DNA of 64,000 bases from Candidatus Curtissbacteria bacterium RIFCSPLOWO2_02_41_11. Its GTDB lineage: Bacteria; Patescibacteriota; Microgenomatia; Curtissbacterales; GWA2-41-24. Both the position numbers and the translations under genes were made by a program. Under the pieces are notes generated by a model. The model was given only the letters and a program-made list of their open reading frames with translations. It searched no databases and had not been told where the DNA came from. Location of the stretch: positions 120,535-184,534 of the forward strand of contig MFBU01000014.1 in assembly GCA_001775055.1 (NCBI GenBank). The letters run 5' to 3'. Below, piece after piece: positions 15,024 to 62,148 of this stretch. Each line of letters starts with the position of its first letter. Within the stretch, counting starts at the first letter, position 1.

Positions 15024-15308
15024 TTGGACTATAATAATTTGTTAGTGAACGAAATTGAAAAGCTCAAAGAAGAAATCGAAAAGATTAAAGAACGCAATCG
15101 GCGGGTCGAAAAAGATAAGACTTGGGAAACTAGTCTTACTCGCCGTATCGCTATCGCCACCTCAACTTACATCTTAATAGCAATCTTCCTTATTATAATT
15201 GGCGTTGAAAAACCGTTTCTTGCCGCTATTATTCCAGCTGCTGCCTACCTTATCTCCACCGCATCATTGGAATTCTTAAGAAGATGGTGGCTTAAAAGCA
15301 AACAATGA
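15024..15308 (+). CDS. small membrane protein with N-terminal coiled-coil
   Basis: 94 aa with charged heptad-like N-terminus (EIEKLKEEIEKIKERNRR) followed by two TM helices. Overlaps the next gene (ATGA). Confidence 0.3.
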   Translation: MDYNNLLVNEIEKLKEEIEKIKERNRRVEKDKTWETSLTRRIAIATSTYILIAIFLIIIGVEKPFLAAIIPAAAYLISTASLEFLRRWWLKSKQ

Positions 15309-15907: not shown

Positions 15908-16085
15908 TGAATTTTAAGAAAAACTTTAAAAAACTTGGTTTTCGAACCCCTTCCACATTTCGCATCAATGCAATCTTATCAGCCAACAAAATCCTAGTAA
16001 GGCACTTTAAAGGAAAGAAGAAATAACATAATTTCTAGTTTTAAAATCAACTTTATTCAAAAAGATATAAAATTTCTTCTCAATT

Positions 16086-16114
16086 TTGCTTTTTTCACAA
16101 ATTGTGTGTAAAAT
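16086..16114 (+). promoter_or_regulatory. sigma70-like promoter: TTGCTT -35, 17-nt spacer, extended TGTG-TAAAAT -10, ATG 7 nt downstream (near-leaderless)
   Basis: TTGCTT at 16086-16091. Spacer ttttcacaaattgtgtg. TAAAAT at 16109-16114. purP ATG at 16121. Confidence 0.35.
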
Positions 16115-16120
16115 ACCTCA

Positions 16121-20986: not shown

Positions 20987-21510
20987 CAAAACCGCAAGTT
21001 GGCATTATCATGGGCTCTGATTCGGATCTGCCAGTGATGACCGAGGCCACTAAAATCTTGGACGAGTTGGGGATAGAAAATGAAGTTTTGATTCTTTCCA
21101 CACACAGAGTGCCTGAGCAAACTGCCCGTTATGCCAGACAAGCTAAAGATCGCGGCCTCAAAGTTCTAATCGCCGGCGCCGGCGGAGCTGCAGCTTTACC
21201 TGGATCACTTGCCTCTCTTACCACGCTTCCCGTGATCGGTGTTCCAATCAAAACAAAATCAATGGAAGGGTTAGATTCGTTGCTTTCCATTGCCCAAATG
21301 CCACCCGGTGTTCCGGTTGCCACAGTTAGCGTCAATGGCGCCAAAAACGCTGGTATTTTGGCAGCTCAAATAATTGGAGTTTTCGATTCCGAAGTTGCTA
21401 AAAAAATTGCCGATTATAAAAAAAAACTAAAAAATGAAGTCTTGGCTAAAAATTTTCAATTACAAAAATTAGGTTGGCCTAAATATCTTAAACAGTTAAT
21501 GACTAAATGA
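20983..21510 (+). CDS. purE: N5-carboxyaminoimidazole ribonucleotide mutase / AIR carboxylase catalytic subunit
   Basis: VGIIMGSDSDLPVM ... IAGAGGAAALPG is the PurE signature. Confidence 0.9.
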   Translation: MTKPQVGIIMGSDSDLPVMTEATKILDELGIENEVLILSTHRVPEQTARYARQAKDRGLKVLIAGAGGAAALPGSLASLTTLPVIGVPIKTKSMEGLDSLLSIAQMPPGVPVATVSVNGAKNAGILAAQIIGVFDSEVAKKIADYKKKLKNEVLAKNFQLQKLGWPKYLKQLMTK

Positions 21511-22478
21511 TTGATCAAAAAACCATTACCAAAAATATTTCATCCGCTATCGATAAAATAAACTATTCCAAACTCGGTAAAAGGTATAGCGGAAAAGTGC
21601 GGGATTGGTACAAACAAGAGCATTTCAGAATTTTGATTGCCACAGATAGAATTTCCGCTTTTGATAGAGTTTTAGGACTTATTCCTTTCAGGGGTGCAGT
21701 CTTAAATAAACTTTCCCAATTTTGGTTTGAAAAAACGCGCGATATTGTTCCCAACCACATGATCGGGGTGATTGATCCAAATATCATGCTGGTGACCGAA
21801 TGCCAAGCCTTGCCCGTTGAGGTGGTAGTTCGTGGCTATATTACCGGTGTAACCAGCACCTCACTTTGGAGAAAGTACTCGGAAGGGGAACGCGTCATTT
21901 ACGGAATTAAATTCCCCGAAGGTTTAGTTAAAAATCAAAAGCTTAAGAATCCGCTAATTACGCCAACTACCCGTGGAACCGGTCCTAGCGGTCATGATGA
22001 GCCGATAACCGCTGCGGAAATTATTAAGAAAAAATTAGTGCCTTCCTCACTCTGGAAGCAGATCGAAAAAGTTGCCTACAAACTTTTTGAAAGAGGCAGT
22101 CAAATTTGTCAAAAAGCCGGTTTTATTTTAGCCGATACCAAGTACGAGTTCGGTTTAGATAAAAAAGGCCGCTTGACACTTATCGATGAAATTCACACTC
22201 CGGACTCAAGCCGGCTCTGGGTCAAAAAGACCTATCCTGCGCGTTTCAAAACAGGGGAAGAGGTTGAAAATTATGATAAGGAGTTTATGCGACTTTGGTT
22301 TGCCCAGCAGGGTTATATGGGAAGCGGTAAGCCACCCCAAATGCCTAGTGATTTAATTGTTAAAATAGCCCAGCGCTATATTGATGCATGCGAAAATATA
22401 ACAGGCGAAAAATTCGTCATTGATCTAACAATTCCTCCCAAACAAAGAATTTTAGAAAGTCTCTCAAAATTGATATAA
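21507..22478 (+). CDS. purC: phosphoribosylaminoimidazole-succinocarboxamide synthase (SAICAR synthetase, long form)
   Basis: YSGKVRDWY, ILIATDRISAFD, ADTKYEFG are PurC motifs. About 320 aa, the long (yeast-like) form. Confidence 0.9.
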   Translation: MIDQKTITKNISSAIDKINYSKLGKRYSGKVRDWYKQEHFRILIATDRISAFDRVLGLIPFRGAVLNKLSQFWFEKTRDIVPNHMIGVIDPNIMLVTECQALPVEVVVRGYITGVTSTSLWRKYSEGERVIYGIKFPEGLVKNQKLKNPLITPTTRGTGPSGHDEPITAAEIIKKKLVPSSLWKQIEKVAYKLFERGSQICQKAGFILADTKYEFGLDKKGRLTLIDEIHTPDSSRLWVKKTYPARFKTGEEVENYDKEFMRLWFAQQGYMGSGKPPQMPSDLIVKIAQRYIDACENITGEKFVIDLTIPPKQRILESLSKLI

Positions 22479-22484
22479 TGCCTC

Positions 22485-24026
22485 ATGGTTGCAGTCATTA
22501 ACTTCGGTGGGCAGTACGCTCATCTTATTGCCAGAAGAATTAGGGAACTTGGCGTAAAAAGTGAACTGATTAGTCCCGATAGTAATATTTCTACTGTAAA
22601 AAAATTAGCCCCTCAAGCTCTAATTTTATCTGGGAGTCCTTTCTCCTGCTATGAAAAAAATGCCCCAAAGGTAGATCTTAAAATCTATGAGCTTGGTCTG
22701 CCGATACTTGGTATTTGCTATGGTCAGCAATTGATGGCCGTACAACTTGGTGGTCAAGTTTCGTCCCATTCCTCAAAACAATTTGGCAGGGAACTTCTGA
22801 AAATTACAACGTCGGCCCTATTTGAGAATCTTAAAAGTTCGCAAACGGTTTGGTTCTCTCATGGCGATCAAGTCGACAGACTTCCCACAGGTTTTAAAAT
22901 AATTGCTTCAAGTAAAAATGCCAAGATTGCCGGCATGGAAGATTCACAAAGGCGATTTTATGGAATCCAATTTCATCCTGAGGTAACCCATACACCGAAT
23001 GGTGAGGTAATCCTATCGAACTTTCTTTTTAAAATTGCCAAGGCCAAAAAAGATTGGAATCTAAAATCTCTCAAGGAAGACATAGTTAATAACTTAATAA
23101 AGAAAATTAAAAATCAAAAAGTAGTGATGGCTCTGTCCGGCGGAGTTGATTCATTGGTTGCCGCTACCTTGTTGAAGGAAGCAATCGGCGATAATTTGTT
23201 TTTAGTTTTTATCGATACTGGGCTACTTCGCAAATATGATCTTGAAGATCTGGAAAATGTTGTTAAAAGTGTCAATTTCAAAAACCTGCCTGCCGGCAGG
23301 CAGGGATTCAGAATAGTTAACTCGCAAAGTCGTTTTCTTAAAATTCTCCAACGCGTCAATGATCCTGAAGAAAAACGAAAAGTTATTGCCAAACTTTATT
23401 TTGCGATCCTAGAGGAAGAGGCCAAAAAAATCGGCAATGTGACTTTTTTGGCCCAAGGCACAATTTATCCAGATCGAATCGAATCAGCAAAGCCTTCCAA
23501 ACATGCCGACAAAATCAAAAGCCATCACAATGTTACCTTGCCGAAAGGTCTTAAATTAAAAATAATTGAGCCTTTGGGGGAATTTTACAAAGACGAGGTC
23601 AGAAAATTGGGTAAAATCTTAAGAATTCCACAAGAATTCTTAAACCGCCATCCGTTTCCAGGACCTGGCCTAGCGATTAGGATTTTAGGAGAAGTGACTG
23701 AAGATCGACTCAAGATTCTAAGGGAGGCTGATGCTATCTTTATTGAGGAGTTAAAGAAAGCAGGTATATATAATAAGGTAGGACAAGCATTGGCTGCGCT
23801 TTTACCTGTTAAATCGGTTGGCGTAATGGGTGACGCACGTACTTATTCATATATCATCGCTTTAAGATCGGTAGATACTGTCGATTTTATGACCGCCGAC
23901 TGGTCAAAAATTCCAAGCGATGTCATGGAGAAAGTCTCATCACGAATTGTCAATGAAGTACGAGGAGTCAACCGTGTCGTCTACGATATCACTCAAAAAC
24001 CTCCGGCCACCATTGAATATGAGTAA
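22485..24026 (+). CDS. guaA: GMP synthase (glutamine-hydrolysing)
   Basis: GATase domain with ICYGQQ (catalytic Cys). PP-loop ALSGGVDS. C-terminal GMP synthase dimerisation domain. Contains a 27-nt GC-rich palindromic insert encoding NLPAGRQG. Confidence 0.9.
   Translation: MVAVINFGGQYAHLIARRIRELGVKSELISPDSNISTVKKLAPQALILSGSPFSCYEKNAPKVDLKIYELGLPILGICYGQQLMAVQLGGQVSSHSSKQFGRELLKITTSALFENLKSSQTVWFSHGDQVDRLPTGFKIIASSKNAKIAGMEDSQRRFYGIQFHPEVTHTPNGEVILSNFLFKIAKAKKDWNLKSLKEDIVNNLIKKIKNQKVVMALSGGVDSLVAATLLKEAIGDNLFLVFIDTGLLRKYDLEDLENVVKSVNFKNLPAGRQGFRIVNSQSRFLKILQRVNDPEEKRKVIAKLYFAILEEEAKKIGNVTFLAQGTIYPDRIESAKPSKHADKIKSHHNVTLPKGLKLKIIEPLGEFYKDEVRKLGKILRIPQEFLNRHPFPGPGLAIRILGEVTEDRLKILREADAIFIEELKKAGIYNKVGQALAALLPVKSVGVMGDARTYSYIIALRSVDTVDFMTADWSKIPSDVMEKVSSRIVNEVRGVNRVVYDITQKPPATIEYE
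23279..23305. repeat. 27-nt GC-rich element with perfect 20-bp palindrome CCTGCCTGCCGGCAGGCAGG, inserted in-frame in guaA (copy 1 of 2)
   Basis: caaaaacctgcctgccggcaggcaggg. An identical 27-mer is at 48863-48889. Confidence 0.9.
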
Positions 24027-50146: not shown

Positions 50147-50217
50147 TGCCGGATCGTCTAATGGTAGGACCGCAGACTCTGGATCTGCGTATCTAGGTTC
50201 GAATCCTAGCCTGGCAG
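50147..50217 (+). tRNA. tRNA-Gln (anticodon CUG)
   Basis: Hand-folded. U1 (bacterial tRNA-Gln hallmark), acceptor tgccgga. D-arm gtct/aatggta/ggac. Anticodon arm gcaga-ctCTGga-tctgc (U33, CTG at 34-36). T-arm ctagg-ttcgaat-cctag. 3' acceptor cctggca plus discriminator g. One A7:C66 mismatch. No encoded CCA. Confidence 0.65.
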
Positions 50218-50362
50218 CTGTGGCGATAAGAAAATTTGGCGGGCTTGACTCGCCATAGGCGGGTTGAATGGGACGACGGATTTCCCGCCAATGGCGGGAT
50301 AAACTGGCTTGCCACGTAATTGCGTGGATCCGTTTATCTAGCTTGTCCCGCTCTAAAGCGGG

Positions 50363-52132: not shown

Positions 52133-53005
52133 ATGAATGATTTGTTAACAGAACTAGGTCAGTTAATTAATAAAAAAAACTTGTCTCGTGGAGCAAAGAA
52201 AAGACTAAGAGTAGATTTAAATGCGATAAGTTTGCGTCTGGTTAAATTTGAATACGAAACTAGTGGAATAGTTGAGAATACTTTTGACGTCCCGGAAACA
52301 TTTAGACGAATGTACAAGCATCTCGATACTTATTCGAAGATTGCTAAAACATGGAGTTCTATATTATCTAATCTTCCTATAGATAAACAGACAAACATTT
52401 TAGATCTTTGTCCCGGCTACGCACCAAAAATTGAGTTAGCTTTATTTTATCTCGGATATAGAGGAACCGTTACCATAATTGATGAGGATAATACTTCAAT
52501 GAAGCAACTTGTCAAATTTATGGCACTATTTAACCCCCAATTCAAAATTGTAACCATGAAACGAGATTTATTTTCTCCTCTCAAAGAAAAATTTCATCTT
52601 GCCGTTGGCAACCATATAATTGATGATCTCATATTACATTACTTTGCTAAGAAGGCTGGAATTAATACTAATGAGTTCTATGAAAACGAGCAGGCTCTTG
52701 TCGACTTTTGGAAAAGGGTTCTTTTAAATAAAAACGAAAACCAAAAAGAAATTACTCAAAAAATATCCGACATATTTAAAACAATTATTGCAAACGGAGG
52801 TTATTTATGCTTGTCGCAATACAAGAGTTATATGGATAAAATGCTAGACTTAGAGAAGGAATTTTTATTCTCGAGAGCAGTTTTTACAAAAATAATCAAA
52901 AATTTAATGAGAAGCGAATTTATCAATTTAAACGTTAAAAATTACGAAGCGAAAAATCAATATTTTTCTGCTCATGATGTTGTAATTTTAAAAAAAACAA
53001 AATGA
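52133..53005 (+). CDS. hypothetical protein (weak Rossmann/SAM-methyltransferase-like pattern)
   Basis: ILDLCPGYAPK ... TIIDED ... LAVGNHIIDDL loosely resemble MTase motifs I, II and IV. Overlaps the next gene (ATGA). Confidence 0.3.
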   Translation: MNDLLTELGQLINKKNLSRGAKKRLRVDLNAISLRLVKFEYETSGIVENTFDVPETFRRMYKHLDTYSKIAKTWSSILSNLPIDKQTNILDLCPGYAPKIELALFYLGYRGTVTIIDEDNTSMKQLVKFMALFNPQFKIVTMKRDLFSPLKEKFHLAVGNHIIDDLILHYFAKKAGINTNEFYENEQALVDFWKRVLLNKNENQKEITQKISDIFKTIIANGGYLCLSQYKSYMDKMLDLEKEFLFSRAVFTKIIKNLMRSEFINLNVKNYEAKNQYFSAHDVVILKKTK

Positions 53006-54150
53006 TGGAAACACGAAGTATTCAGTCTCGAGATCTAGTCGATTTACGTGTAAAGCTTACCAACCTTGCTCGGAATATTAGAAGAACAACAATACCGGAT
53101 GACGTCGAGCTAATTTACCCACAATCATCAAGAGATGATACAGTTTTTTTTAAAGGATCAGTATTAAAGAGAAAAAGAATCGTTCTACTTGCCCCTGCAT
53201 GTGTTACTGCAACATGCACTATGTGCCCTTTACCAAACGAGGCTCTTGATCGAAAAACCAGGCCCATTTCGCCCGAGCAAATCATTCAACAGTTCGAATC
53301 ATCTTTTGAGGGAGAAAGGTCTCTCGATGACTACGAGCTAATAACTGTTTACAATAATGGAAATTTCTTTGCCGATTTAGAACTAGACCGGGCAGTTCGA
53401 AAGCACATTTACAAAAGAGTGGGCGAGAGCAAAGCATCAATACTTGTTGTGGAGTCACTGCCGCAATTCATTACGCCAGAAAAGGTTGAAGAAGCAAAAG
53501 AGCTTCTAGGGCAAAAAGAACTTGCGGTGGCTATCGGTTTACAGTCATCCAACGATTTAGTTCGAGAACTTGCTGTAAACTCAACATGCACAAAAGCTGC
53601 TTTCGAAAGAGCTGTGCGGTTGTTGGGGGAGAATGGATATAAACCGCTCACATTTCTTATGATCAAACCCCCATTTTTGACTGAAAAGGAGGGAATCGAG
53701 GATGCTGTAGGCTCCATAAAATATCTAGCAAGTTTGGGTATTGATGACCCTATATTATGCGCAACTCGAGTGGCACCGAACACTGTAGCAATGCTCCTTC
53801 GTGAGAAAGGGCTTTTTAATCCGCCATGGATTTGGTCAGTTGTTGAGGTTCTAAAAAAGAGTTCAACTGTTAGTCCTAGCAGTAGACCTCGAGTAGTGTT
53901 ATCAGAATTGAAGCCAGAAATTAACTTAGATTCCGCATGTCCTCAAAATTGCGATTTATGCAGTACTCGAATTATAGATTTGATAGATTCCTACAATAAA
54001 ACCGGTGACGTAAAAGTTTTTAGAGATGCAGATTGTGATTGTAGGGAAACTTATAAAGCGTATGTTGATTCTGTAGAAAAAGACATGGGGCGAGTTTCCC
54101 TTTTGGAGAGAGTCAGAGATTTTTTGGATGGTATATTAATAGAAAGTTGA
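53002..54150 (+). CDS. radical-SAM-like TIM-barrel enzyme with atypical CX4CX2C cluster motif
   Basis: LLAPACVTATCTMCPL (Cys-x4-Cys-x2-Cys). AIGLQSSNDLVRELAVNST...LTFLMIKPPFLTEKEGIEDAVGSIKYLASLGIDDP resembles the GxQS.ND...NR / downstream pattern of HemN/ELP3/TIGR01212-type radical SAM proteins. Additional Cys cluster CPQNCDLC...DCDC. Confidence 0.4.
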   Translation: MMETRSIQSRDLVDLRVKLTNLARNIRRTTIPDDVELIYPQSSRDDTVFFKGSVLKRKRIVLLAPACVTATCTMCPLPNEALDRKTRPISPEQIIQQFESSFEGERSLDDYELITVYNNGNFFADLELDRAVRKHIYKRVGESKASILVVESLPQFITPEKVEEAKELLGQKELAVAIGLQSSNDLVRELAVNSTCTKAAFERAVRLLGENGYKPLTFLMIKPPFLTEKEGIEDAVGSIKYLASLGIDDPILCATRVAPNTVAMLLREKGLFNPPWIWSVVEVLKKSSTVSPSSRPRVVLSELKPEINLDSACPQNCDLCSTRIIDLIDSYNKTGDVKVFRDADCDCRETYKAYVDSVEKDMGRVSLLERVRDFLDGILIES

Positions 54151-55922
54151 TTGAGATGCCAAAGACATATATCAACCATTGAAGACTTTTCACTGAAACC
54201 TATATATTTCATAAAATTTTTGAAGTAAGGATAAGTTTGCGATAATAATACGGGCTTTTCTAAGCTCTTATAAAATCCCACATTGAGTCTCCATAATTTG
54301 ATTGAAAATTCCAACTCTTCCGTAGGAGGTATCATTGCTCTACTGCGAAGTGAAACATAAGGCAGTAGATAAGGAACTCGGCAAATTTCACCGTCTGGTA
54401 AAGTTACCACTAGCCCAGAATCTTTTGAACCAATAATAAAGTCTCTTAAATCTACTACATCGATCAAATTGAAACTTTTTCCTGGTACGTACTTGCCCGT
54501 CTTTAAATCTTCGTGTAATAGCTTCAAGGTACTTTCTATCTTTATTCTCCGGGGTAATAGCGATAAAACCTTTCCTCCTGTATACCCGGTCGCAACATCA
54601 TCATCCACCAAAACATATGTTCCACTTGGGATATCTGAAATTTGCTTATCAACTAAGGGGTATCCAAGTCTACCAATTACAGCTCTTGGTTCTAGCTGTC
54701 CGTCACAGATATCAAAAAGCCTGGATACATATAATCTGTACCCACCATTTGTACAAACATCCATGTTTATTACTTTTTTAGATTTGTTGAGTACGTTGAT
54801 AAAATTTTGTTGTGATTTTAGATTTACGACAACTATTGAGTCTTTCGAAAAAATGGCTTGCAAATAGTAGACGAAATCATTCAAAAAACCTCTTTTTGCT
54901 TCTAGAACTTTTTGTTCACCATGGGATTTTGATAGTTTTTCAAGGGCCCAAAGGCCATCATTTCTTACAGCGTAAATTTTTTTTAAGGAGTCGTCACTTT
55001 TATAGAAGTTTTGGAAACTTATTTTTTTTCTCAATTCGCTTGAGGAAATACTTGGCTTCGTCCTAGATTGAGATGTAAAAATAATGTTTTTGGGTTTTGC
55101 TATTGGAACTTCGCGTGCAACATCCTCAAGTTTACTTTCGTAGCCCTCTCTTTTTACACAAACGCAACTGCCTTTATCTATAAATGCTCTCGAAAAAACA
55201 GCATTATCACTACCGAAAACATAAACAACTTCAATTTTTAGTCCCAAATGAAATTGAAGATAACCCTCTAGTCTTAATATTGCATCGGTATAAGTTATCG
55301 GCACCTTGTTATATCGCGCTTCCCATGTGTCAATCATCAACCAATCGCTGTCACGGATTGCTTTCTCGCAAAGATCTATTCGCGAAGACGAATCAAGGTT
55401 TAATGAATCTGTGTATTTATTCCATACATATTCATCATGTGATGGTGATATATAACCGCCAACAACGGTTTTATTTAATTTCTCAACCTCTAATTTTGCG
55501 AGTTTCATCATTTCGATATGCCCCGTGTGAACGGGCGAGAATCCACCGGTAGAAAACAAGACAACTGGGTGAAAACGCTTGTCTTTTTTATGCCGCTGCA
55601 AATTATCCGAAATTTTCTGAAAAGGGGTGCATAACCAATTATGGAAATCTAATTTAGTAAGCGATCCTGGTTCAAGTCCATCATCAAAAAATCCCGCTTC
55701 AATTACCGATTTTATGCTTTTATAAGCAAAATAAGTTTTTGAAAGAAATGGGTCTCGTAATATTTTCCACGCAAGCCTGAGATCGTTTATTTCGTACTTA
55801 TTTTCTTTTTTTAACCTTAGATAAGCAAGATCCAATTTAGAAGCAACATCAGTTCTTTTTACCCCAAACAACTTCCAGAGGTCTTCATTATTTTTTATTT
55901 TTAAATACATTAGTTCTCCCAA
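54051..55922 (-). CDS. fusion protein: NMN/NaMN adenylyltransferase-like nucleotidyltransferase domain plus C-terminal type-I phosphoribosyltransferase (PRPP-binding) domain
   Basis: VVLFSTGGFSPVHTGHIEMM (the (H/T)xGH nucleotidyltransferase motif). ISPSHDEYV and WLMIDTWEA parallel eukaryotic/archaeal NMNAT blocks (ISPVGDAYKK, WVEVDTWES). C-terminal YVLVDDDVATGYTGGKV is the PRPP-binding motif of type I PRTases/PRPP synthetase. Confidence 0.5.
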   Translation of the reverse strand: MGELMYLKIKNNEDLWKLFGVKRTDVASKLDLAYLRLKKENKYEINDLRLAWKILRDPFLSKTYFAYKSIKSVIEAGFFDDGLEPGSLTKLDFHNWLCTPFQKISDNLQRHKKDKRFHPVVLFSTGGFSPVHTGHIEMMKLAKLEVEKLNKTVVGGYISPSHDEYVWNKYTDSLNLDSSSRIDLCEKAIRDSDWLMIDTWEARYNKVPITYTDAILRLEGYLQFHLGLKIEVVYVFGSDNAVFSRAFIDKGSCVCVKREGYESKLEDVAREVPIAKPKNIIFTSQSRTKPSISSSELRKKISFQNFYKSDDSLKKIYAVRNDGLWALEKLSKSHGEQKVLEAKRGFLNDFVYYLQAIFSKDSIVVVNLKSQQNFINVLNKSKKVINMDVCTNGGYRLYVSRLFDICDGQLEPRAVIGRLGYPLVDKQISDIPSGTYVLVDDDVATGYTGGKVLSLLPRRIKIESTLKLLHEDLKTGKYVPGKSFNLIDVVDLRDFIIGSKDSGLVVTLPDGEICRVPYLLPYVSLRSRAMIPPTEELEFSIKLWRLNVGFYKSLEKPVLLSQTYPYFKNFMKYIGFSEKSSMVDICLWHLNQLSINIPSKKSLTLSKRETRPMSFSTESTYAL

Positions 55923-56872
55923 CCCCCTGGAACAAACCTCTTGTAGATATCGAAATGGACAGAAGGCGATTTGCCCAAATATTTATGCCTGTTGTATTGA
56001 TGTATTTTTTCTAAACGCTTAGATAACTTTTCAAATTGTTTCTTCGACTTTGCGTTTAGTTTTTTAGAAAATTCTATCTTTTCTTTTCGAGTAAATGTTA
56101 GGTACGTGATATATAATTCCACAAACTCATATGTTGTTCCAAATACTTCTTCATCTGTTCTTCCATCAAACATATCACCACTTGGTTTTATATTGATAAT
56201 TTCCTCAGGAATATTTAAGATTTTTGCAACTCGACACACCTCACTTTTATGAATATCTGAAATAATTTGTAAGTCTACCATCCCATCTGAGGCTTTGCCA
56301 AAATACCCTAGATAAGCTCCTTCATCACGATTTGTAGTTCCACAGACTACTGCAGGAGAATTTGCCTGATTTAAAAGGCTAGTAATATAATAGAGAGTCG
56401 GCGTTTTTATATAAGCCGCTAACTGCCCGGCTGCCCAGTTTTTGCCTTTGAGATTAATTGACTTATCTATTGTGTTTTTAAGAACTGTGTGGCTCTTTGT
56501 TAAATCAACAACAATCTTTTTTGAATTGAAATACTTCGCAATCTCCTCTCCTCTTTTTGAAGCACCTTTTTGATTGGTTGCCGCTAATGGAGAAAAAACA
56601 GGCATCAAGATTGCATAAATATTTTTAATAGGTGAATTTTTGTGACGCGAGGCATTATGAACTATTCCCAAAACTACGGCAGAGTCAACGCCTCCGCTTA
56701 CAGCAACAACACAAGACTTTAGTTTAAAATCACTCATGTATCGATTCAGCAACATCGATTTATTTTTAATATAAAGCTGTGGATTAAAATCTCTTTTTGC
56801 ACGAATAATAGTAAGGACATCAAGTAATCCTTGCTCCAAAGTTTTTCCTGTTTGGGGATTATTAATTCTCAT
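55910..56872 (-). CDS. nadE: NH3-dependent NAD+ synthetase-like PP-loop amidotransferase
   Basis: SCVVAVSGGVDSAVV (SGGxDS PP-loop). GTTNRDEGAYLGYFGKASDGMVDLQIISD parallels NadE GTDHAAE.ITGFFTKYGDGGTDINPL. C-terminal TTYEFVELY parallels VTYDNIDDY. Confidence 0.65.
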   Translation of the reverse strand: MRINNPQTGKTLEQGLLDVLTIIRAKRDFNPQLYIKNKSMLLNRYMSDFKLKSCVVAVSGGVDSAVVLGIVHNASRHKNSPIKNIYAILMPVFSPLAATNQKGASKRGEEIAKYFNSKKIVVDLTKSHTVLKNTIDKSINLKGKNWAAGQLAAYIKTPTLYYITSLLNQANSPAVVCGTTNRDEGAYLGYFGKASDGMVDLQIISDIHKSEVCRVAKILNIPEEIINIKPSGDMFDGRTDEEVFGTTYEFVELYITYLTFTRKEKIEFSKKLNAKSKKQFEKLSKRLEKIHQYNRHKYLGKSPSVHFDIYKRFVPGGWEN

Positions 56873-56916: not shown

Positions 56917-57855
56917 TTATCCTGAGGTTCTGACATATCCATACCCTCCACCCTCTGAAGACCTACGAGGCGGACGAGGGGTAGGCGGATTATAAGCAGG
57001 AGATGAGGATGCAGAACTTGACGATCTTCTACTTCGACTAGGGCTGGTCACCTCTTCCTCCTCTGCTACTTCTTCTTTTTGCAGTGCCGCGATCAGGTCT
57101 ATAGCACCCTTATGAACTTCAACAATTGATACCAAAGACTCTGTACCGTCCCTGGCACTTTTCAGTGGAATTGTGATCGAGTTATTAACTGGGTCTTTAT
57201 CGATATTTGCAAAATCTGGTTGAAATTTGCTATCTTCCAGTTGTTTGGGCACATTAATTTTATCTATCCCTTTTTTAGACCCAACTACTATTTTATACTG
57301 ATTCTTTTTGCCACGTGTGAACACAAACACAATGTCTTCTTCCGGATCAAGTTCCTTTCCATTTTTATCTTCAAAAGAAAACGGTATTCTGGCAATTTGC
57401 GGTTTTAAACCCTCTCGTATCAAATTTCTTTCTGCAATTCCATTTGTAAGTAAATCAACGTTAATCGAATGAAGTTCGAAAGGGTTTTGGGATTTACTTT
57501 CGAAAGCTTGTCGGAGTTTTTCGCGAAGTTCTATAAGTTCTTCATCGTTGGTTAATTCTAGCGCAGATGTAATTCTAAAAAAAAATGCTTCATCTCCATT
57601 CTCAATAGAGTCGGCAAGTGCCTTTTTTACTTTTTCTCTTTCTTCTCCCAAGCGTCTCTCGTTAATCCGAATCTGGCCATCAACAATCATAATTGGTGTG
57701 TCGGATTCTAGCTCTACTATTTCTGTATAAATTAAACCAGTTAAGAATCTTGGCCCCATCGAAGCCAACGGAATTCCCTCAGTAGGTTGGTCAGTTCCAA
57801 GGGGACTATCTGTTACTTGATCTGGGTGTTCTGATTGTTCAGATGGTCTTGGCAC
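56917..57855 (-). CDS. hypothetical protein with Ser/Arg/Pro-rich low-complexity C-terminus
   Basis: 312 aa. C-terminal SPSRSRRSSSSASSSPAYNPPTPRPPRRSSEGGGYGY. No motif recognised. Confidence 0.35.
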   Translation of the reverse strand: MPRPSEQSEHPDQVTDSPLGTDQPTEGIPLASMGPRFLTGLIYTEIVELESDTPIMIVDGQIRINERRLGEEREKVKKALADSIENGDEAFFFRITSALELTNDEELIELREKLRQAFESKSQNPFELHSINVDLLTNGIAERNLIREGLKPQIARIPFSFEDKNGKELDPEEDIVFVFTRGKKNQYKIVVGSKKGIDKINVPKQLEDSKFQPDFANIDKDPVNNSITIPLKSARDGTESLVSIVEVHKGAIDLIAALQKEEVAEEEEVTSPSRSRRSSSSASSSPAYNPPTPRPPRRSSEGGGYGYVRTSG

Positions 57856-57895
57856 AGTTAGTATTTTATCATGAGATTATTATATGCTCTAAAGC

Positions 57896-59362
57896 TTAAC
57901 TTATCTGCCAGTCGTGTTGCCATTGTTCAACTTGGACGCCCTTCTTTGCAGCTCTTCCAACCCACTCTGGAGGTCTTGGATTGTTTTTTGACTCGCCTAG
58001 TACATCTTCTACTCCGGACGCTTTGATTAAATCCAAAACTATTTCTTGATCTTCTCTATACATTCCTGCCAAATATTCTTGATAAACTGCCTCCATGAAT
58101 AAATCGTGCCAGTTATCGTTGGTTTTAACCTGCCCACTTCTGAATAACTCGTCAACATCTATAAGGGTCGTTTGGGCAGCTTTTATGCTATCAAGAATCC
58201 TTAATAAATTACGTCGAGTGTAAACGTAAGAACCTCCTTTGATGTCCTTTTCTGATCCAATTTTGCCAAGAGACGCTAAGTTTGAAAGATCACCTTGAAA
58301 AGCGGCTAACCATTTAATAACGGCATCCACGTTTGGTATGTTTTCAAGATCTCTGTACTCTGTTCTTACGTCTTTTTCTCCCTTATAACGCCTGTTCTGC
58401 CAAACTATATCGGGTTGTTCACCTTTGATTAAAAATCTCAAAAACTCTTCATATTCCTTAGTGGTTAATCCTTCAACTATTCTATCTTGCAGTCTGTTTC
58501 TCCTTGCCTCGGATTCTTCAAACCTGCCTCCACCGATGCCAAAAGGATTTTGAGCTGCTACATACCAATACCTGCTATCAAGACCAATAACCCCAGGTAC
58601 AATTCCACCATTGTCAATTATTGATTGCTCCTCAGGCGTTAAAGGTCTTATAATTTCTCCTTCATGTTCGACAATTCTTAATTGAGCCATTCTTTCAATT
58701 GCTGAGTTTTCCCGCTCAATAACATTACCCGGTGCTAAATTTGGTTCGTCAGCTCCATAAACGCTGCCATACATCATAGATCCTGCGAGTGTTCCATTTT
58801 GCCAGCGCCATTGGATAGTATCATCGAGACCATCAATCCCAAGAGCAGCGGCAATTTTTTTACTTTCAAGGAGCGTCAGAGGTCTTGATTGTTTCTCTGC
58901 AGACTCGACAATTTCTTTGAGGCTCTCAGGTAAGTCTGGATCAGCTAGGAGTTCTTTAAAACGAACTGCAAGTTTGGCATCAGCGGGTACAAATCTTCCA
59001 ATTGTGTCACCAGGATCGGAATCCTTAGAATAATTATGTCTCAGATAACTCCTGTTAGTAAGCGCACAAATCACCTCAGCTGCATATGATTTCGAAACAC
59101 CTGTAGGGCCTTCGTTTCTAGATGCAATCCCTCCTTTGAGCCGAACTGCCATATCTCTTATCAAAAGAACAGTTGGTGTATCCCAACAGGTAGAGGCTTT
59201 TAATAGCTCGATTTTCGGGATGAAACGTCTAGCATTAACATCTTCAGGCAATGGTAACCTGTCTAAAACAACATCCAGAACCCTTACTTGGTTTTCTTTA
59301 GGATATTCCTGAATGACTGGGACTTCCCCTAATTTTCGTTCAATGTCTCCCTTTTCTGTCAT
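57896..59362 (-). CDS. AAA+ ATPase, MoxR/dynein-related (AAA_5-like) clade
   Basis: Walker A GPTGVSKS. Walker B-like VYGADEPNLAP. Start is placed at Met 59362 (MTEKGD...), 1 nt after the upstream stop. The tracked ORF extends further in a non-coding frame. Confidence 0.55.
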   Translation of the reverse strand: MTEKGDIERKLGEVPVIQEYPKENQVRVLDVVLDRLPLPEDVNARRFIPKIELLKASTCWDTPTVLLIRDMAVRLKGGIASRNEGPTGVSKSYAAEVICALTNRSYLRHNYSKDSDPGDTIGRFVPADAKLAVRFKELLADPDLPESLKEIVESAEKQSRPLTLLESKKIAAALGIDGLDDTIQWRWQNGTLAGSMMYGSVYGADEPNLAPGNVIERENSAIERMAQLRIVEHEGEIIRPLTPEEQSIIDNGGIVPGVIGLDSRYWYVAAQNPFGIGGGRFEESEARRNRLQDRIVEGLTTKEYEEFLRFLIKGEQPDIVWQNRRYKGEKDVRTEYRDLENIPNVDAVIKWLAAFQGDLSNLASLGKIGSEKDIKGGSYVYTRRNLLRILDSIKAAQTTLIDVDELFRSGQVKTNDNWHDLFMEAVYQEYLAGMYREDQEIVLDLIKASGVEDVLGESKNNPRPPEWVGRAAKKGVQVEQWQHDWQIS

Positions 59363-59363
59363 T

Positions 59364-59822
59364 TCAACTAACCTTTCGTAAGTCCAACAGGTGGTCTGTG
59401 ATCTCCCGCATTTTATCTTCTGTATTTTGCTCTGACTCGTTTGTGACGAGGAAGATTTTTGCTTGACTCGGGATTGTAGTGTTTCGCAGGTCAAATGACC
59501 CCTGATGAATATCAAACTTGTTTGATTCCCGCAGTTTTATCAGTTGATCGTAAATAACTGGATCAAAATTTACAGAATTTGCGAAAACAACTATTACTTT
59601 TCCTTTTGAAAGATCCTCGGCAAGGCTTTGGAGAAATCCGAATACATCATTTTTTTCTTCATGAGTAACTTCCGCATAATCTACGTTCAAAAGACTAAAA
59701 AGGTCCCTGATCTGGTTTCTAACATTTGTAGGCGAAATAATTCCCTCTATTGTGTTATACGAGGAGCTGTGAGGGTGTAAATGGAAACTTAGAAATCTAG
59801 CAAGCTGTTTTTGTGCGTTCAT
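59364..59822 (-). CDS. hypothetical protein (possible N-terminal partner of the AAA+ ATPase)
   Basis: 152 aa. Stop TGA then A then ATG of the AAA+ gene (TGAaATG), i.e. two separate adjacent genes rather than a frameshift. Confidence 0.35.
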   Translation of the reverse strand: MNAQKQLARFLSFHLHPHSSSYNTIEGIISPTNVRNQIRDLFSLLNVDYAEVTHEEKNDVFGFLQSLAEDLSKGKVIVVFANSVNFDPVIYDQLIKLRESNKFDIHQGSFDLRNTTIPSQAKIFLVTNESEQNTEDKMREITDHLLDLRKVS

Positions 59823-59823
59823 A

Positions 59824-62148
59824 TTAACGATAGAAAAACTCTGGATGCTTTACCATATACTCCATGATTATAGCAAAAGCCCTGCCGAATTCTTCGGCGT
59901 CTGTGTATGAGTTTCCAACCTCATCAAAATTAGCACCAAGAGCTCTCGCAATATCTCTTTTTACTCTTTCATGGAGTTCAGGATAAGAATCATTAACGAA
60001 ATCGGTTCCTGGACCGATACCAAAGCCTGCTGTTACTACGCTTCTGTCAGACCTTACTTCACGAAGCAAATCGAGTACTTCTTCCTGCGATGTGCTGGTT
60101 GGCTCACCATCTGTTAAGGTAATAAAATAATTGTTGTCCAGTGGTAGACTGGACATTCTTCTTTTTAAATATCTGTAACTTGCTTGTGTAGCCTCATATG
60201 TAGGTGTACCACTTCCTCCACAATCGGATAGCATTTTTCCAAGTACATCTCTATCTTGATTTGTTAGTTTCTTTTTTCCAAAATCCTTATACAATCTGAC
60301 TTTTCCTTTGAAACTGTCTCTAAAACCTATAATTGCAAATTCAAGACCGAATCTATTCATTACTTCAGAAAAGGCTGCGACCATCTTAAACGTTTCAAAA
60401 ATTTTACCTTCCATTGATGGACTAAGATCAACTAAAAGTAGAAATCTATAGCTTTTTTCGGTGGGTCTACCTTTCGCTTCAAAAGCATTATATTTTCTGG
60501 GATCTGCCTCCATTTGCATTGCTTTTCTCATTGATGGCCTCAAACCGGTTGAGGAATAGCGAATACTCGGTTCTTCCGTCGGTTCAAAAAGTGTTTTAAA
60601 TTCTTTTTCTAGTCTTCTTCTGACAGCATCTACATCAGGCATAGATAGGACAGATTGGTAGGGATCCTCTTGAATTGTTTCGAGTGCTTCTTTTCGCCTT
60701 TTTTCCATATCTCTTGCAACTCTTTCTGCCTCCTTTTGTTGCTCCTCTTTTGCTTGACTAGTTTTTTCTCCTACTCGCCTTTCTTTGTGAGATTCTTGGT
60801 GTCGAGGATCATTTATATGCCCTTTTAGCTTTTCGTTTGCTTCGTCTTCTACATCCTCCAGATCTTCTCTTGCTCTCTGCTCGAGACTGTCTTTCGACTC
60901 ACTCGAAAGATTATCGTAAGCATCTTCTATAGCTTTCTTTGTTTTGTCAGAAAAGTCGTCCCAAGGAATTCTCATGTCAGATCCATTCTCACTTCGACCA
61001 TCCTCTTCTCTGCCTTGAGCACTCGATCCTTGTGTTCCCTCAGCAGGTTCAGCACTTTCTTCTTGCACATTCATACCTTGTTCACTACCAGAAGAATCTC
61101 CTGACTGTTCTCCTTGCGTTTGTTGCGTTTGACCATTAGCCCCAGATTGACCGTCTTCTCCTGTCTGTTTTTCTTGATCTTTCTCTGCTCTTTCTTGCCC
61201 TTGAGGTTCACCAGACTGCTTGGGACCTTTTTGGCCTTGTTGTCGATTAGCCTCTTTTACTTTTTCTCTAATTTCGTCTTGTACATCTTTAGGTAGCGCA
61301 TCAAACGGTATAACCATAATTTGTCCTCCTCCATGCTGGCCCTGGCCACCACCTTGCTGATCTTGAGAGAGCATGTCTTTTATCATATTGACCATATTCT
61401 GGTCTTTTAAGGATTCCTCTACTAATTGTTTATATTTGGGCCAGATCTTTTCTATGAAGACTTCAGTGCTTGCGATAGCTTCTCTCTGAACATCAAATTC
61501 ATCCTTAGTTGTGGGGGTTATTCGGTAAAACTCATCAAATGCGTCGATCGTTTCCCTAATTGTTCTTCTGACATCCTCATCTGGGATTTCTTCCAAAAAA
61601 TGTTCTTTGTCTTCTTCAGTCTTGAGCCCATCTGTAAACTCTCTTTTGTACCAATGATGTATTATTTCTCCTCCCCATTGCATGAATTTAGGTACGTACC
61701 CTAATGAATTCCGGGCGTCTGCTAGCATGCCTTTGTAGTCTAAGCCTCCTCCAGGACTCAGGTCGCGTTCTATATACGCTCTGATCCAGTCTCTGGAGCC
61801 AGGCCTCATACTCATACCGGCTTGGTTTGCTCTGGGATCCTCACAAGCGTTGAAACCAAAGGAAAAACCTGGTTCTTGCCATAAATCAGTAACGTGTTCC
61901 GCTCTTGATACGAGTCTATGATTACCTTCATGAGCAGCAATACCTTTGACAACATCCTCGGGTTCTGTCGCCAAGTCCTTAGCATCCATATTTACGTGAT
62001 TCTTAACAAAATCCCAATGCCAACCACTTCCCCATGGACCAACACCAACTGTCATGCCATAATCTCCACCCATAAAAAGTGCAATTACATCTGCCTTTCT
62101 TCTTATAGTTTCGTCTATCTGGGGTTGTCTTTCGGTTTGATCATTCAT
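59824..62148 (-). CDS. large VWA-domain protein with N-terminal HExxH (putative zincin-like) region and acidic/Gln-Gly-rich linker (CbbO/NorD/DUF2201-like MoxR partner)
   Basis: C-terminal MIDAS LLLVDLSPSMEG ... T ... D (von Willebrand A). N-terminal AAHEGNHRL (HExxH). Central (Q/G/E)-rich low-complexity segment. 774 aa. Confidence 0.6.
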   Translation of the reverse strand: MNDQTERQPQIDETIRRKADVIALFMGGDYGMTVGVGPWGSGWHWDFVKNHVNMDAKDLATEPEDVVKGIAAHEGNHRLVSRAEHVTDLWQEPGFSFGFNACEDPRANQAGMSMRPGSRDWIRAYIERDLSPGGGLDYKGMLADARNSLGYVPKFMQWGGEIIHHWYKREFTDGLKTEEDKEHFLEEIPDEDVRRTIRETIDAFDEFYRITPTTKDEFDVQREAIASTEVFIEKIWPKYKQLVEESLKDQNMVNMIKDMLSQDQQGGGQGQHGGGQIMVIPFDALPKDVQDEIREKVKEANRQQGQKGPKQSGEPQGQERAEKDQEKQTGEDGQSGANGQTQQTQGEQSGDSSGSEQGMNVQEESAEPAEGTQGSSAQGREEDGRSENGSDMRIPWDDFSDKTKKAIEDAYDNLSSESKDSLEQRAREDLEDVEDEANEKLKGHINDPRHQESHKERRVGEKTSQAKEEQQKEAERVARDMEKRRKEALETIQEDPYQSVLSMPDVDAVRRRLEKEFKTLFEPTEEPSIRYSSTGLRPSMRKAMQMEADPRKYNAFEAKGRPTEKSYRFLLLVDLSPSMEGKIFETFKMVAAFSEVMNRFGLEFAIIGFRDSFKGKVRLYKDFGKKKLTNQDRDVLGKMLSDCGGSGTPTYEATQASYRYLKRRMSSLPLDNNYFITLTDGEPTSTSQEEVLDLLREVRSDRSVVTAGFGIGPGTDFVNDSYPELHERVKRDIARALGANFDEVGNSYTDAEEFGRAFAIIMEYMVKHPEFFYR

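What the first reader, a model, noticed from the sequence alone, without database searches (positions are those of the whole stretch)
54051..56872. Compact two-gene NAD module: NadE-like amidotransferase plus a novel NMNAT-like / type-I PRT fusion protein
The 623-aa protein carries an HxGH nucleotidyltransferase core whose blocks (ISPSHDEYV, IDTWEA) resemble eukaryotic/archaeal NMNAT rather than bacterial NadD. It ends in a PRPP-binding motif (VLVDDDVATGYTGG) typical of type I phosphoribosyltransferases or PRPP synthetase. The neighbouring gene overlaps it by 13 nt and is NadE-like. Together the three activities (phosphoribosyl transfer to a base, adenylylation, amidation) would convert nicotinate or nicotinamide plus PRPP to NAD in two polypeptides. 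This parallels the NadM/NadE route and phage NAD-reconstitution pathways, but with an architecture I do not recognise; canonical nicotinate/nicotinamide PRTases are type II, not type I.
Basis: partly seen in the sequence, partly recalled or inferred. Interest (0 to 1): 0.75.

Follow-up and report, generated by a model that had tools for sequence, protein, structure and literature searches.

The report
NAD module with unusual three-domain enzyme
Two coupled genes in an uncultured bacterium encode a special NAD-synthetase paralogue and a three-domain protein (J-like domain, eukaryote-type NMN/NaMN adenylyltransferase, divergent phosphoribosyltransferase-like domain). The pair is conserved, uncharacterised and clearly tied to NAD metabolism, but the chemistry of its third domain is still unproven.

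Summary
Both ORFs exist, with a likelier ATG start giving 619 aa and a TAATG stop/start overlap. All the quoted motifs are present.

- **Neighbour:** a NadE-family amidoligase with an intact PP-loop.
- **C-terminal 290 aa:** a confident model (pLDDT 93) with no Pfam model and no close solved structure. It has a near-canonical PRPP loop and weak but consistent similarity to type I PRTs only.

The family is large (1129 cluster representatives) and is found in CPR bacteria, gut Firmicutes, Melainabacteria, Myxococcota and others.

- All 60 loci examined with the PRT-like domain have this NadE paralogue adjacent or fused, sometimes in ~1200-aa megafusions with a 2OG oxygenase.
- NrtR, PncB, NadV and canonical NadE(Gln) sit beside the module in several genomes. 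This ties it to NAD metabolism but argues against simple redundancy with the classical route.
- Radical-SAM, racemase, PLP-decarboxylase-like and GNAT genes recur nearby and are unexplained.

Best reading, at moderate confidence: a Preiss-Handler-like three-step route. No description of the family was found in the literature.

The parts
55910..56872 (-). NadE-family ATP-dependent amidoligase (320 aa), a distinct paralogue that always accompanies the fusion protein
   Evidence: Pfam NAD_synthase E 1.1e-31. TIGR00552 105.9 bits, above the 63.65 cut-off, but full-length equivalog models are not reached (118 against 255). Best PDB sequence matches are P. horikoshii NadE at 1e-16 and Francisella 3fiu at 8.5e-16. 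It is 43-66% identical to the partner genes in other phyla.
56681..56698 (-). PP-loop ATP-binding motif SGGVDS of the NadE-like protein
   Evidence: Located by translation.
54051..55910 (-). Three-domain protein, 619 aa from the ATG (623 aa if the TTG at 55922 is used). The TAATG overlap with the nadE-like stop suggests translational coupling.
   Evidence: AlphaFold2 full-length model has pLDDT 90.7 and pTM 0.90.
55596..55910 (-). N-terminal J-like helical domain without the HPD motif (residues 1-105)
54996..55583 (-). Eukaryote-type NMN/NaMN adenylyltransferase domain (residues ~110-305), with HTGH (55518..55529), ISPSHDEYV (55425..55451), IDTWEA (55317..55334) and ISSSELR (55029..55049)
54123..54995 (-). 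Divergent type-I-phosphoribosyltransferase-like domain (residues ~306-596), with no Pfam model. Invariant residues are R316, R397, R414, D437, D438, D487, D490, G494, G499, Y514, P517, R524 and N543.
54573..54617 (-). PRPP-loop-like motif YVLVDDDVATGYTGG
   Evidence: Coordinates. It matches 12 of 13 positions of PROSITE PS00103 (pattern recalled from memory). The relaxed pattern occurred in 0 of 2000 shuffles. It aligns to the APRT PRPP loop.
54051..54122 (-). Non-conserved, low-confidence C-terminal tail plus stop codon. It overlaps the 3' end of the convergent radical-SAM gene by 100 nt.
   Evidence: pLDDT is below 50 for residues 597-619. The alignment is not conserved here. ORF coordinates.
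53002..54150 (+). Possible accessory gene: convergent RaSEA-like radical SAM protein (382 aa)
   Evidence: TIGR01210 E 3.3e-57, 194 bits against a cut-off of 212. It holds the same convergent position in L001, L003, L009, L052, L053 and L023. In Collierbacteria it is divergent from nrtR.
52133..53005 (+). Possible accessory gene: 290-aa protein of unknown function with a degenerate methyltransferase-like motif, overlapping the radical SAM gene start by 4 nt
   Evidence: No Pfam hit. Homologues lie near the module in 19 of 60 loci, including gut Firmicutes. A weak hit to a SAM-dependent methyltransferase, E 0.15.

Best explanation
The locus is a conserved, uncharacterised NAD-metabolism module on a bacterial (CPR-like) chromosome. 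It has two parts. One is a dedicated NadE-family amidoligase. The other, translationally coupled to it, is a three-domain protein: a J-like domain without HPD, a eukaryote-type NMN/NaMN adenylyltransferase, and a divergent type-I-PRT-like domain.

Most likely mechanism:
1. The PRT-like domain uses PRPP to convert a pyridine carboxylate (nicotinate is the simplest candidate) into its mononucleotide.
2. The fused adenylyltransferase domain converts that to the dinucleotide.
3. The NadE paralogue amidates the carboxylate to give NAD.

The order could instead be amidation at the mononucleotide stage, as in the Francisella NMN-synthetase route.

What is shown and what is inferred:
- Shown: the domain identities, intact ATP-binding motifs in the NMNAT and NadE parts, a PRPP-loop-like motif, obligate pairing of the PRT-like domain with this NadE paralogue, and genomic linkage to NAD regulators and salvage genes.
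- Inferred: that the PRT-like domain is catalytic, what its base substrate is, the substrate of the NadE paralogue, and the role of the J-like domain.
For: Domain identities:
- NMNAT. Catalytic motifs HxGH and ISSxxxR are intact and conserved.
- NadE: with the PP-loop.
- PRT-like domain: PRTs are the only recurring family in three independent searches. Its invariant Asp-Asp/Thr PRPP loop and many invariant Arg and Asp residues are typical of a phosphate-binding active site.

Functional coupling:
- The NadE paralogue lies within 1.9 kb in 60/60 loci that have the PRT-like domain. It is on the same strand in the loci whose gene maps were read. It is absent from the 2 loci where only J-like+NMNAT occurs.
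- Single polypeptides exist with NadE+NMNAT+PRT-like and with NadE+2OG oxygenase+NMNAT+PRT-like.
- By analogy with NadR (NMNAT+RNK), fusing an NMNAT to the enzyme of the preceding step has precedent (established knowledge).

NAD link:
- NrtR is adjacent in 8 species-level loci across CPR, Clostridia and Gammaproteobacteria.
- PncB, NadV or NadE(Gln) are adjacent in L013, L030, L057, L058, L022 and L025.
- In L013 the operon PncB/NadE(Gln)/NrtR contains no other adenylyltransferase than the fusion protein.

The host can make use of PRPP: the same window carries a de novo purine operon.
Against: - Canonical PncB, NadV and glutamine-dependent NadE lie beside the module in some genomes. One of these is a small Saccharibacteria genome that therefore carries two NadE-family genes. 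The module's PRT-like and NadE-like parts are thus probably not plain duplicates of the classical enzymes.
- All known nicotinate, nicotinamide and quinolinate PRTs are type II (established knowledge).
- The recurrent accessory genes have no role in a simple salvage route: radical SAM enzymes, Asp racemase, a fused 2OG oxygenase, a Lys/Orn-decarboxylase-like PLP enzyme, GNAT and the 290-aa family.
- No whole-genome census could be made to show that canonical nadD or pncB are missing in the host.
Confidence: 0.45

Rival explanations
1. The module supplies only the last two steps, as NadD- and NadE-type activities. The PRT-like domain is not a pyridine-base phosphoribosyltransferase. It would be a ligand-sensing or regulatory domain (binding PRPP, a nucleotide or ADP-ribose), or it would catalyse a different NAD-cycle reaction. 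NaMN or NMN would come from canonical PncB or NadV, or from uptake.
For: Canonical PncB (L013, L030) and NadV (L058) lie directly beside the module. Type I PRT folds are known to act as PRPP or nucleotide sensors, for example PyrR and PurR (established knowledge); PyrR is among the Foldseek hits. Similarity to catalytic PRTs is marginal. The pTM of 0.90 suggests a rigid multi-domain unit compatible with allosteric coupling.
Against: The strict co-occurrence of the PRT-like domain with the NadE paralogue, and its absence from the short J-NMNAT proteins, is easier to explain by a shared pathway. The domain has as many invariant charged residues as the catalytic NMNAT domain. Adjacent PncB or NadV was found in only 3 of 60 loci.
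Confidence: 0.25
2. The module is the core of a pathway to something other than plain salvage NAD. Either it is a new route that builds the pyridine base de novo, or it makes a modified pyridine (or other carboxylated-base) adenine dinucleotide. The PRT-like domain would load a non-standard base. The NadE paralogue would amidate or ligate its carboxylate. The radical SAM, 2OG oxygenase, racemase, PLP enzyme, GNAT and 290-aa proteins would make or tailor the base.
For: Accessory enzymes recur with the module:
- A 291-aa radical SAM protein in 29 loci and a Lys/Orn-decarboxylase-like PLP enzyme in 26.
- An Asp racemase in 10 loci and the RaSEA-like radical SAM protein in 6.
- The 290-aa family in 19 loci, spanning CPR and Firmicutes.
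- Radical SAM genes even next to the short J-NMNAT proteins.

Other support:
- A 2OG-Fe(II) oxygenase is fused between the NadE and NMNAT parts in megafusions.
- The NadE paralogue is only 22-29% identical to canonical NadE encoded in the same locus.
- Two NadE-family genes are kept in a small Saccharibacteria genome.
Against: The accessory sets differ between lineages and none is universal. The window itself has only the radical SAM and 290-aa pair. The link to NrtR and the salvage genes points to NAD itself. The module occurs in reduced CPR genomes, where secondary metabolism is unusual. No product can be inferred.
Confidence: 0.22
3. The pair is a phage-type NAD reconstitution (NARP-like) or anti-defence cassette carried on a mobile element.
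For: The NadE-like protein matches PHROG 11189, 'NAD synthetase'.
Confidence: 0.02

Closest known systems
Eukaryotic-type NMN/NaMN adenylyltransferases (NMNAT1-3, yeast Nma1, fungal 9iw1, plant 9rpk) and bacterial NadD
   Different: Here the domain is embedded between a J-like domain and a 290-aa PRT-like domain. It is below the TIGR00482 trusted cut-off (57 against 112 bits) and only about 23% identical.
Bifunctional NMNAT fusions: NadR (NMNAT + ribosylnicotinamide kinase) and NadM-Nudix (NMNAT + ADP-ribose pyrophosphatase)
   Same: An NMNAT is fused to a second NAD-cycle domain. The genes are associated with the regulator NrtR or with NAD salvage genes.
Preiss-Handler route PncB-NadD-NadE, and the Francisella NadE*(NMN synthetase)/NadM variant
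   Same: The same three formal chemistries are proposed: phosphoribosyl transfer, adenylylation and amidation. The second-best PDB sequence match of the NadE-like protein is the Francisella enzyme 3fiu.
   Different: PncB is a type II, ATP-coupled PRT, whereas here the candidate is type-I-like. The NadE is a separate paralogue that coexists with canonical NadE(Gln) and PncB in some loci.
Type I phosphoribosyltransferases (APRT, HGPRT, OPRT, XPRT; Pfam Pribosyltran, PRTase_2, PRTase-CE)
   Different: The similarity is very remote: Z no higher than 6.2 and about 10-17% identity over 100-120 residues. The domain is 290 aa, with large family-specific parts such as DxVDLRDFxxGS, GGLVV and RAPYxLPYVS. 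There is an extra Asp in the loop. The window protein has no Pfam hit.
Phage NAD reconstitution pathways NARP1 (Adps + Namat) and NARP2 (NAMPT + NMNAT)
   Same: A compact set of genes that could rebuild NAD. An NMNAT is present, as in NARP2.
   Different: There is no NAMPT or Namat-like protein and no Prs-like Adps. The setting is cellular and no viral homologues were found.

Membership tests
NMN/NaMN adenylyltransferase (NadD/NMNAT branch of the HxGH nucleotidyltransferases) | N-terminal (H/T)xGH ATP-binding motif in GxFxPxHxGH | tested here: met
   GGFSPVHTGH, with HTGH at residues 128-131. Kept in 68 of 73 homologues.
NMN/NaMN adenylyltransferase (NadD/NMNAT branch of the HxGH nucleotidyltransferases) | C-terminal ISSTxxR motif | tested here: met
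   ISSSELR at residues 288-294. S289, S290 and R294 are at least 90% conserved.
NMN/NaMN adenylyltransferase (NadD/NMNAT branch of the HxGH nucleotidyltransferases) | Closest structural and sequence relatives are NMNAT/NadD rather than cytidylyltransferases, PPAT or NadM | tested here: met
NMN/NaMN adenylyltransferase (NadD/NMNAT branch of the HxGH nucleotidyltransferases) | Score above the curated equivalog cut-off (TIGR00482) | tested here: not met
   57.3 bits against a cut-off of 112.45. The superfamily model PF01467 is passed, 28.7 against 21.
NMN/NaMN adenylyltransferase (NadD/NMNAT branch of the HxGH nucleotidyltransferases) | Adenylyl transfer to NMN and/or NaMN | not testable with these tools
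   Needs an enzyme assay.
Type I phosphoribosyltransferase | PRPP-binding loop (PROSITE PS00103-type: four hydrophobic residues, two acidic, then h-h-x-[ST]-G-x-[ST]) | tested here: inconclusive
   YVLVDDDVATGYT fits 12 of 13 positions; Asp replaces the hydrophobic residue at position 7. The strict pattern is found in 0 of 73 homologues and the relaxed pattern in 14 of 73. D437, D438 and G442 are invariant and T444 nearly so. The pattern itself was recalled from memory.
Type I phosphoribosyltransferase | Significant match to Pfam Pribosyltran (PF00156) or a clan member | tested here: not met
   The window domain has no PRT hit at E<=1. Among 36 homologues, 7 hit Pribosyltran (best 0.0011), 5 PRTase_2 and 4 PRTase-CE, all below threshold.
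Type I phosphoribosyltransferase | PRT core fold (parallel sheet with the PRPP loop between a strand and a helix) | tested here: inconclusive
Type I phosphoribosyltransferase | PRPP-dependent transfer to a base | not testable with these tools
   Needs an enzyme assay.
NAD+ synthetase NadE (PP-loop amidoligase) | PP-loop SGGxDS | tested here: met
   SGGVDS at residues 59-64.
NAD+ synthetase NadE (PP-loop amidoligase) | Score above the curated family cut-offs | tested here: met
   The TIGR00552 nadE domain model gives 105.9 bits against 63.65, and PF02540 gives 110 against 21. Full-length equivalog models are not reached, for example PRK13980 at 118 against 255.
NAD+ synthetase NadE (PP-loop amidoligase) | Orthology with the housekeeping NadE and NaAD specificity | tested here: inconclusive
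   It forms its own group, 43-66% identical across phyla. It is only 22-29% identical (E 1e-6 to 0.2) to the canonical NadE(Gln) in the same loci. Substrate specificity cannot be tested here.
J-domain (DnaJ/Hsp40 co-chaperone) | J-domain helical fold | tested here: met
J-domain (DnaJ/Hsp40 co-chaperone) | HPD tripeptide needed to stimulate Hsp70 | tested here: not met
   HPD is present in the first 80 residues of only 1 of 73 homologues and is absent in the window protein.
Phage NARP1/NARP2 NAD reconstitution | NAMPT/Namat-type (type II PRT) enzyme, Prs-like Adps, and phage genomic context | tested here: not met

The most novel reading that the evidence does not exclude
The NadE paralogue plus the J-NMNAT-PRT-like protein form the conserved core of an undescribed pyridine-nucleotide pathway. 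A new class of type-I-like PRT would load a base onto PRPP. That base would be made or tailored by the lineage-specific radical SAM, 2OG oxygenase, racemase or PLP enzymes. The result would be either a NadA/NadB/NadC-independent de novo route to NAD or a modified NAD-like dinucleotide, in CPR bacteria and uncultured gut Firmicutes.
Probability: 0.2. Interest if true: 0.9.

Novelty: new variant of a known kind. Interest (0 to 1): 0.65.

Why it matters
NAD biosynthesis is one of the best-mapped cofactor pathways, and all known pyridine-base PRTs are type II. A widespread module in which an NMNAT is fused to a type-I-like PRT domain and locked to a private NadE paralogue would be one of two things: a non-orthologous replacement of the first salvage step, or the entry to unknown pyridine-nucleotide chemistry. 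The module has more than 1100 cluster representatives, all from uncultured lineages, including reduced CPR genomes and common gut Firmicutes.

It also matters for practical reasons:
- It bears on metabolic reconstruction of CPR symbionts and of niacin economy in the gut.
- It corrects current annotations ('hypothetical', 'NadD', or wrongly 'NH3-dependent NAD synthetase').
- It defines a 290-aa domain family that has no Pfam model.
- The hypothesis is directly testable with two recombinant proteins.

Tried and rejected
- **Cytidylyltransferase reading of the central domain:** rejected.
- **Phage or NARP origin:** rejected.
- **Foldseek against PDB with the C-terminal model:** nothing significant.
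- **AFDB50 library:** not available.
- **Pattern-based genome scan with the 36-sequence C-terminal alignment:** failed for lack of a sufficiently conserved block. It was repeated with a 9-sequence alignment.
- **Literature:** five searches for a description of the fusion, and one on NAD metabolism in CPR bacteria, found nothing relevant.
- **Promoter and terminator scan:** no enrichment over shuffles, so the operon boundaries are not settled.
- **Accessory proteins:** PDB sequence search of the 291-aa radical SAM partner gave no hit. The profile of the 290-aa family gave only E 0.08-0.15 hits.
- **Circular-permutation idea:** DxVDLRDF in this family resembles the APRT PPi loop GLDSRGF but lies after the PRPP loop. 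I could not test this without model coordinates.
- **Whole-genome census for nadD, pncB and nadV in the host or in complete CPR relatives:** not possible, because only 10-kb flanks are retrievable.

Full report
**1. Observation**

The two minus-strand ORFs are present as described: 54051..55922 (623 aa from a TTG) and 55910..56872 (320 aa).
- The sequence at the junction is GGGAGAACTAATG, and homologues align from the ATG at 55910.
- The likely product is therefore 619 aa. Its start codon shares one base with the TAA stop of the upstream gene, an arrangement that suggests translational coupling. The 13-nt overlap applies only to the less likely TTG start.
- A relaxed PRPP-loop pattern never arose in 2000 shuffles of the protein.

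The window is a cellular chromosome.
- It carries SecD/SecF, RecJ, the CCA-adding enzyme, a class II (D/K/N-type), a Glu/Gln-type and a Cys-tRNA synthetase, and a D-Ala-D-Ala carboxypeptidase.
- It also carries a large de novo purine operon.
- Its closest relatives are CPR/Patescibacteria metagenome contigs.
- No other recognisable NAD gene lies in the 64 kb.

**2. Anatomy of the large protein**

An AlphaFold2 model built on 73 homologues is confident (pLDDT 90.7, pTM 0.90). Only the last ~23 residues are disordered. There are three domains.

(a) Residues 1-105 form a J-like helical domain.
- The HPD tripeptide is missing in 72 of 73 family members, so this is not a canonical Hsp70 co-chaperone domain.

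(b) Residues ~110-305 are an NMN/NaMN adenylyltransferase.
- TIGR00482 gives E 2e-15, below its trusted cut-off.
- The family profile hits plant NMNAT at 6.5e-33, human NMNAT1/3 at about 1e-20, bacterial NadD at 1e-5 and a cytidylyltransferase at only 0.041.
- The two ATP-site motifs are intact and conserved.
'Eukaryotic-type' is right and 'archaeal' is not.

(c) Residues ~306-596 form a compact alpha/beta domain.
- Its own model has pLDDT 93.4. There is no Pfam, NCBIfam or PHROG match.
- A 36-sequence profile of this domain finds only PRTs at the top of the PDB sequence list. APRT scores E 0.012, aligned on the PRPP loop.
- When each member is scanned against Pfam, three PRT-clan families recur (Pribosyltran 7 members, PRTase_2 5, PRTase-CE 4). 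Every other family appears once.
- The loop YVLVDDDVATGYT sits between a strand and a helix. D437, D438 and G442 are invariant and T444 nearly so.
- The domain carries many further invariant Arg and Asp residues (R316, R397, R414, D487, D490, R524). That pattern fits a phosphate-binding active site.

My reading is a highly divergent type-I-PRT-like domain that probably binds PRPP or a ribose-5-phosphate moiety. Catalysis and substrate are inferred, not shown.

**3. The neighbour**

The 320-aa protein is a NadE-family PP-loop amidoligase.
- PF02540 gives E 1e-31 and TIGR00552 is above its cut-off, with the SGGVDS motif present.
- Its best PDB sequence matches are short NH3-dependent enzymes, including the Francisella entry 3fiu. 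I recall 3fiu as the NMN synthetase; that identification is from memory.
- It belongs to a separate orthologous group. Partner genes in Clostridia, Saccharibacteria, Gammaproteobacteria and Myxococcota are 43-66% identical to one another.
- They are only 22-29% identical to the canonical glutamine-dependent NadE encoded in the same loci.

**4. Distribution and linkage**

- The full-length family has 178 hits in the word-indexed search.
- A profile of the C-terminal domain finds 1129 50%-identity cluster representatives, 547 of them below 1e-30.
- In species-representative genomes it occurs only in MAGs. These are Collier-, Shapiro-, Sacchari- and Peregrinibacteria, many uncultured Clostridia, Bacilli and Mollicutes, Melainabacteria, Armatimonadota, Myxococcota, Gamma- and Betaproteobacteria and Gaiellaceae.
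- Source annotations are 'hypothetical protein', 'nicotinic acid mononucleotide adenylyltransferase', or wrongly 'NH(3)-dependent NAD(+) synthetase'.

Linkage of the two genes:
- In all 60 non-redundant loci that contain the PRT-like domain, the NadE paralogue lies within 1.9 kb. It is on the same strand in the loci whose gene maps were read.
- In two Patescibacteria loci the protein is only J-like+NMNAT (311-316 aa). There the NadE paralogue is absent as well.
- Single polypeptides exist with NadE+NMNAT+PRT-like (855 and 883 aa), with 2OG oxygenase+NMNAT+PRT-like (824 aa), and with NadE+2OG-Fe(II) oxygenase+NMNAT+PRT-like (about 1200-1430 aa).
- The functional coupling of the two window genes is therefore well supported.

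**5. Link to NAD metabolism, and a complication**

The NAD regulator NrtR (Nudix + NrtR winged helix) is adjacent in eight species-level loci from four lineages. Three loci are especially informative:
- Clostridiales contig L013: PLP enzyme, radical SAM, NadE-like, fusion, PncB, NadE(Gln), NrtR.
- Saccharibacteria L057: NadE(Gln), NrtR, racemase, NadE-like(+2OG), fusion.
- Gammaproteobacterial L058: NrtR, NadV, J-NMNAT and PRT-like (apparently split), then NadE-like+2OG.

This ties the module firmly to NAD. It also shows that it coexists with the classical type II PRTs and with a canonical NadE, even in a small genome. The PRT-like and NadE-like parts are therefore unlikely to be simple duplicates. 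In L013 the only adenylyltransferase in the NAD operon is the fusion protein.

**6. Unexplained accessory genes**

Clustering the neighbours of 60 loci shows the following:
- a 291-aa radical SAM protein (29 loci) and a Lys/Orn-decarboxylase-like PLP enzyme (26 loci), both upstream in Firmicutes;
- GNAT, fused in the 705-aa forms;
- a second radical SAM/SPASM-like protein;
- a 617-aa unknown protein (19 loci);
- an Asp racemase (10 loci; TIGR00035 above its cut-off);
- a RaSEA-like radical SAM protein (6 loci, including the window at 53002..54150);
- a 216-290-aa family (19 loci, in both CPR and Firmicutes; the window copy is at 52133..53005).

Even the short J-NMNAT genes are preceded by two radical-SAM-type genes. 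None of these has a role in textbook salvage.

**7. Mechanism**

The best-supported reading (confidence about 0.45) is a Preiss-Handler-like three-step route:
1. PRT-like domain: pyridine carboxylate + PRPP gives the mononucleotide.
2. NMNAT domain: mononucleotide gives the dinucleotide.
3. NadE paralogue: amidation.

Amidation might instead come at the mononucleotide stage. The arguments are:
- the logic of fusing consecutive steps, as in NadR;
- the strict co-occurrence of the PRT-like domain with an amidoligase, which is needed only if a carboxylated base is used;
- the NAD genomic context.

The rivals:
- The PRT-like domain is regulatory or does another NAD-cycle reaction, and the pair acts as NadD+NadE (0.25).
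- The module is the core of a pathway to a de novo pyridine or a modified dinucleotide, using the accessory enzymes (0.22).
- It is a phage-type NARP cassette (0.02; refuted).

**8. Comparison with known systems, and novelty**

- It works like an NMNAT fusion enzyme of the NadR or NadM-Nudix kind, and like the PncB-NadD-NadE route.
- It is not a member of the NadM, NadR, PncB or NARP families.
- Membership in the NMNAT/NadD family is supported at motif and fold level, though below the equivalog cut-off.
- Membership in the type I PRT family is unproven: one defining test was not met and two were inconclusive.
- I found no paper describing it.
- I rate it a new variant of a known kind, with a substantial chance of hiding new chemistry, and an interest of 0.65.

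Noticed in passing
window 53002..54150 (+) and 52133..53005 (+): A RaSEA-like radical SAM gene (TIGR01210 E 3e-57, just below its cut-off) converges on the fusion gene and overlaps it by 100 nt. It is preceded, with a 4-nt overlap, by a 290-aa protein with no Pfam hit and a degenerate methyltransferase-like motif. Both recur next to the module in other genomes: the 290-aa family in 19 of 60 loci, including gut Firmicutes. In Collierbacteria the radical SAM gene is divergent from nrtR.
   Followed up: partly
window 55596..55910 (-): The fusion protein starts with a J-like domain that lacks the HPD motif in nearly all family members. Its role is unknown; oligomerisation, partner docking or an HscB-like link to Fe-S/radical SAM proteins are possibilities.
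   Followed up: partly
window 5421..24026 (+): A large de novo purine operon in a CPR-like genome: PurN, PurD, PurS/L, PurQ, PurM, PurA, PurB, PurE, PurC and GuaA. It includes two paralogues of the DUF1246/DUF1297 ATP-grasp family, which I take to be the archaeal-type PurP, at 16121..17134 and 18411..19589.
   Followed up: no
window 56917..62148 (-): Upstream of nadE-like, on the same strand, lie four genes. They are a 312-aa protein with a Ser/Pro-rich tail, a 539-aa AAA-like protein (PHROG 'porphyrin biosynthesis'/CobS-like, E 1e-9), a 152-aa ORF and a 774-aa highly acidic, low-complexity protein ending in a VWA domain. This looks like a MoxR/CobS-VWA pair. The 539-aa and 312-aa genes are syntenic only in the closest relative, L001, so they are probably not part of the module.
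   Followed up: partly
loci L027, L044, L046, L049, L062, L063; proteins P0132, P0212, P0164, P0238, P0205: Megafusions of 824-1591 aa join NadE, a 2OG-Fe(II) oxygenase/PhyH-like domain, NMNAT and the PRT-like domain in one polypeptide. They occur in Myxococcota, Burkholderiales and others. The oxygenase has no obvious role in NAD synthesis.
   Followed up: partly
L013:16-9173, L057:4758-11851, L058:7147-14282: Canonical NAD genes (PncB, NadV, glutamine-dependent NadE, NrtR) lie in the same operon-like arrays as the module. A Saccharibacteria genome therefore keeps two NadE-family genes side by side.
   Followed up: yes
L060:8060-10894 and L059:2-2059: Falkowbacteria and a marine Patescibacterium have a short J-like+NMNAT protein (311-316 aa) without the PRT-like domain and without the NadE paralogue. 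It is preceded by two radical-SAM-type genes.
   Followed up: partly
Firmicute loci, e.g. L018:13273-15126 and L045:15206-15541: A 617-aa protein of unknown function, containing a 'GSGRA' motif, and a ~111-aa small protein follow the module in 19 and 11 loci respectively. The motif recalls SelO-like AMPylases; that resemblance is from memory and was not tested.
   Followed up: no
protein P0005 (Collierbacteria orthologue): UniRef and NCBI nr name this fusion protein 'NH(3)-dependent NAD(+) synthetase'. This looks like an annotation error carried over from the adjacent gene. JGI calls relatives 'nicotinic acid mononucleotide adenylyltransferase'.
   Followed up: yes
window 50147..50218 (+): A single tRNA-Gln(CTG) gene lies in the gap between the aminoacyl-tRNA synthetase block and the region studied.
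   Followed up: no
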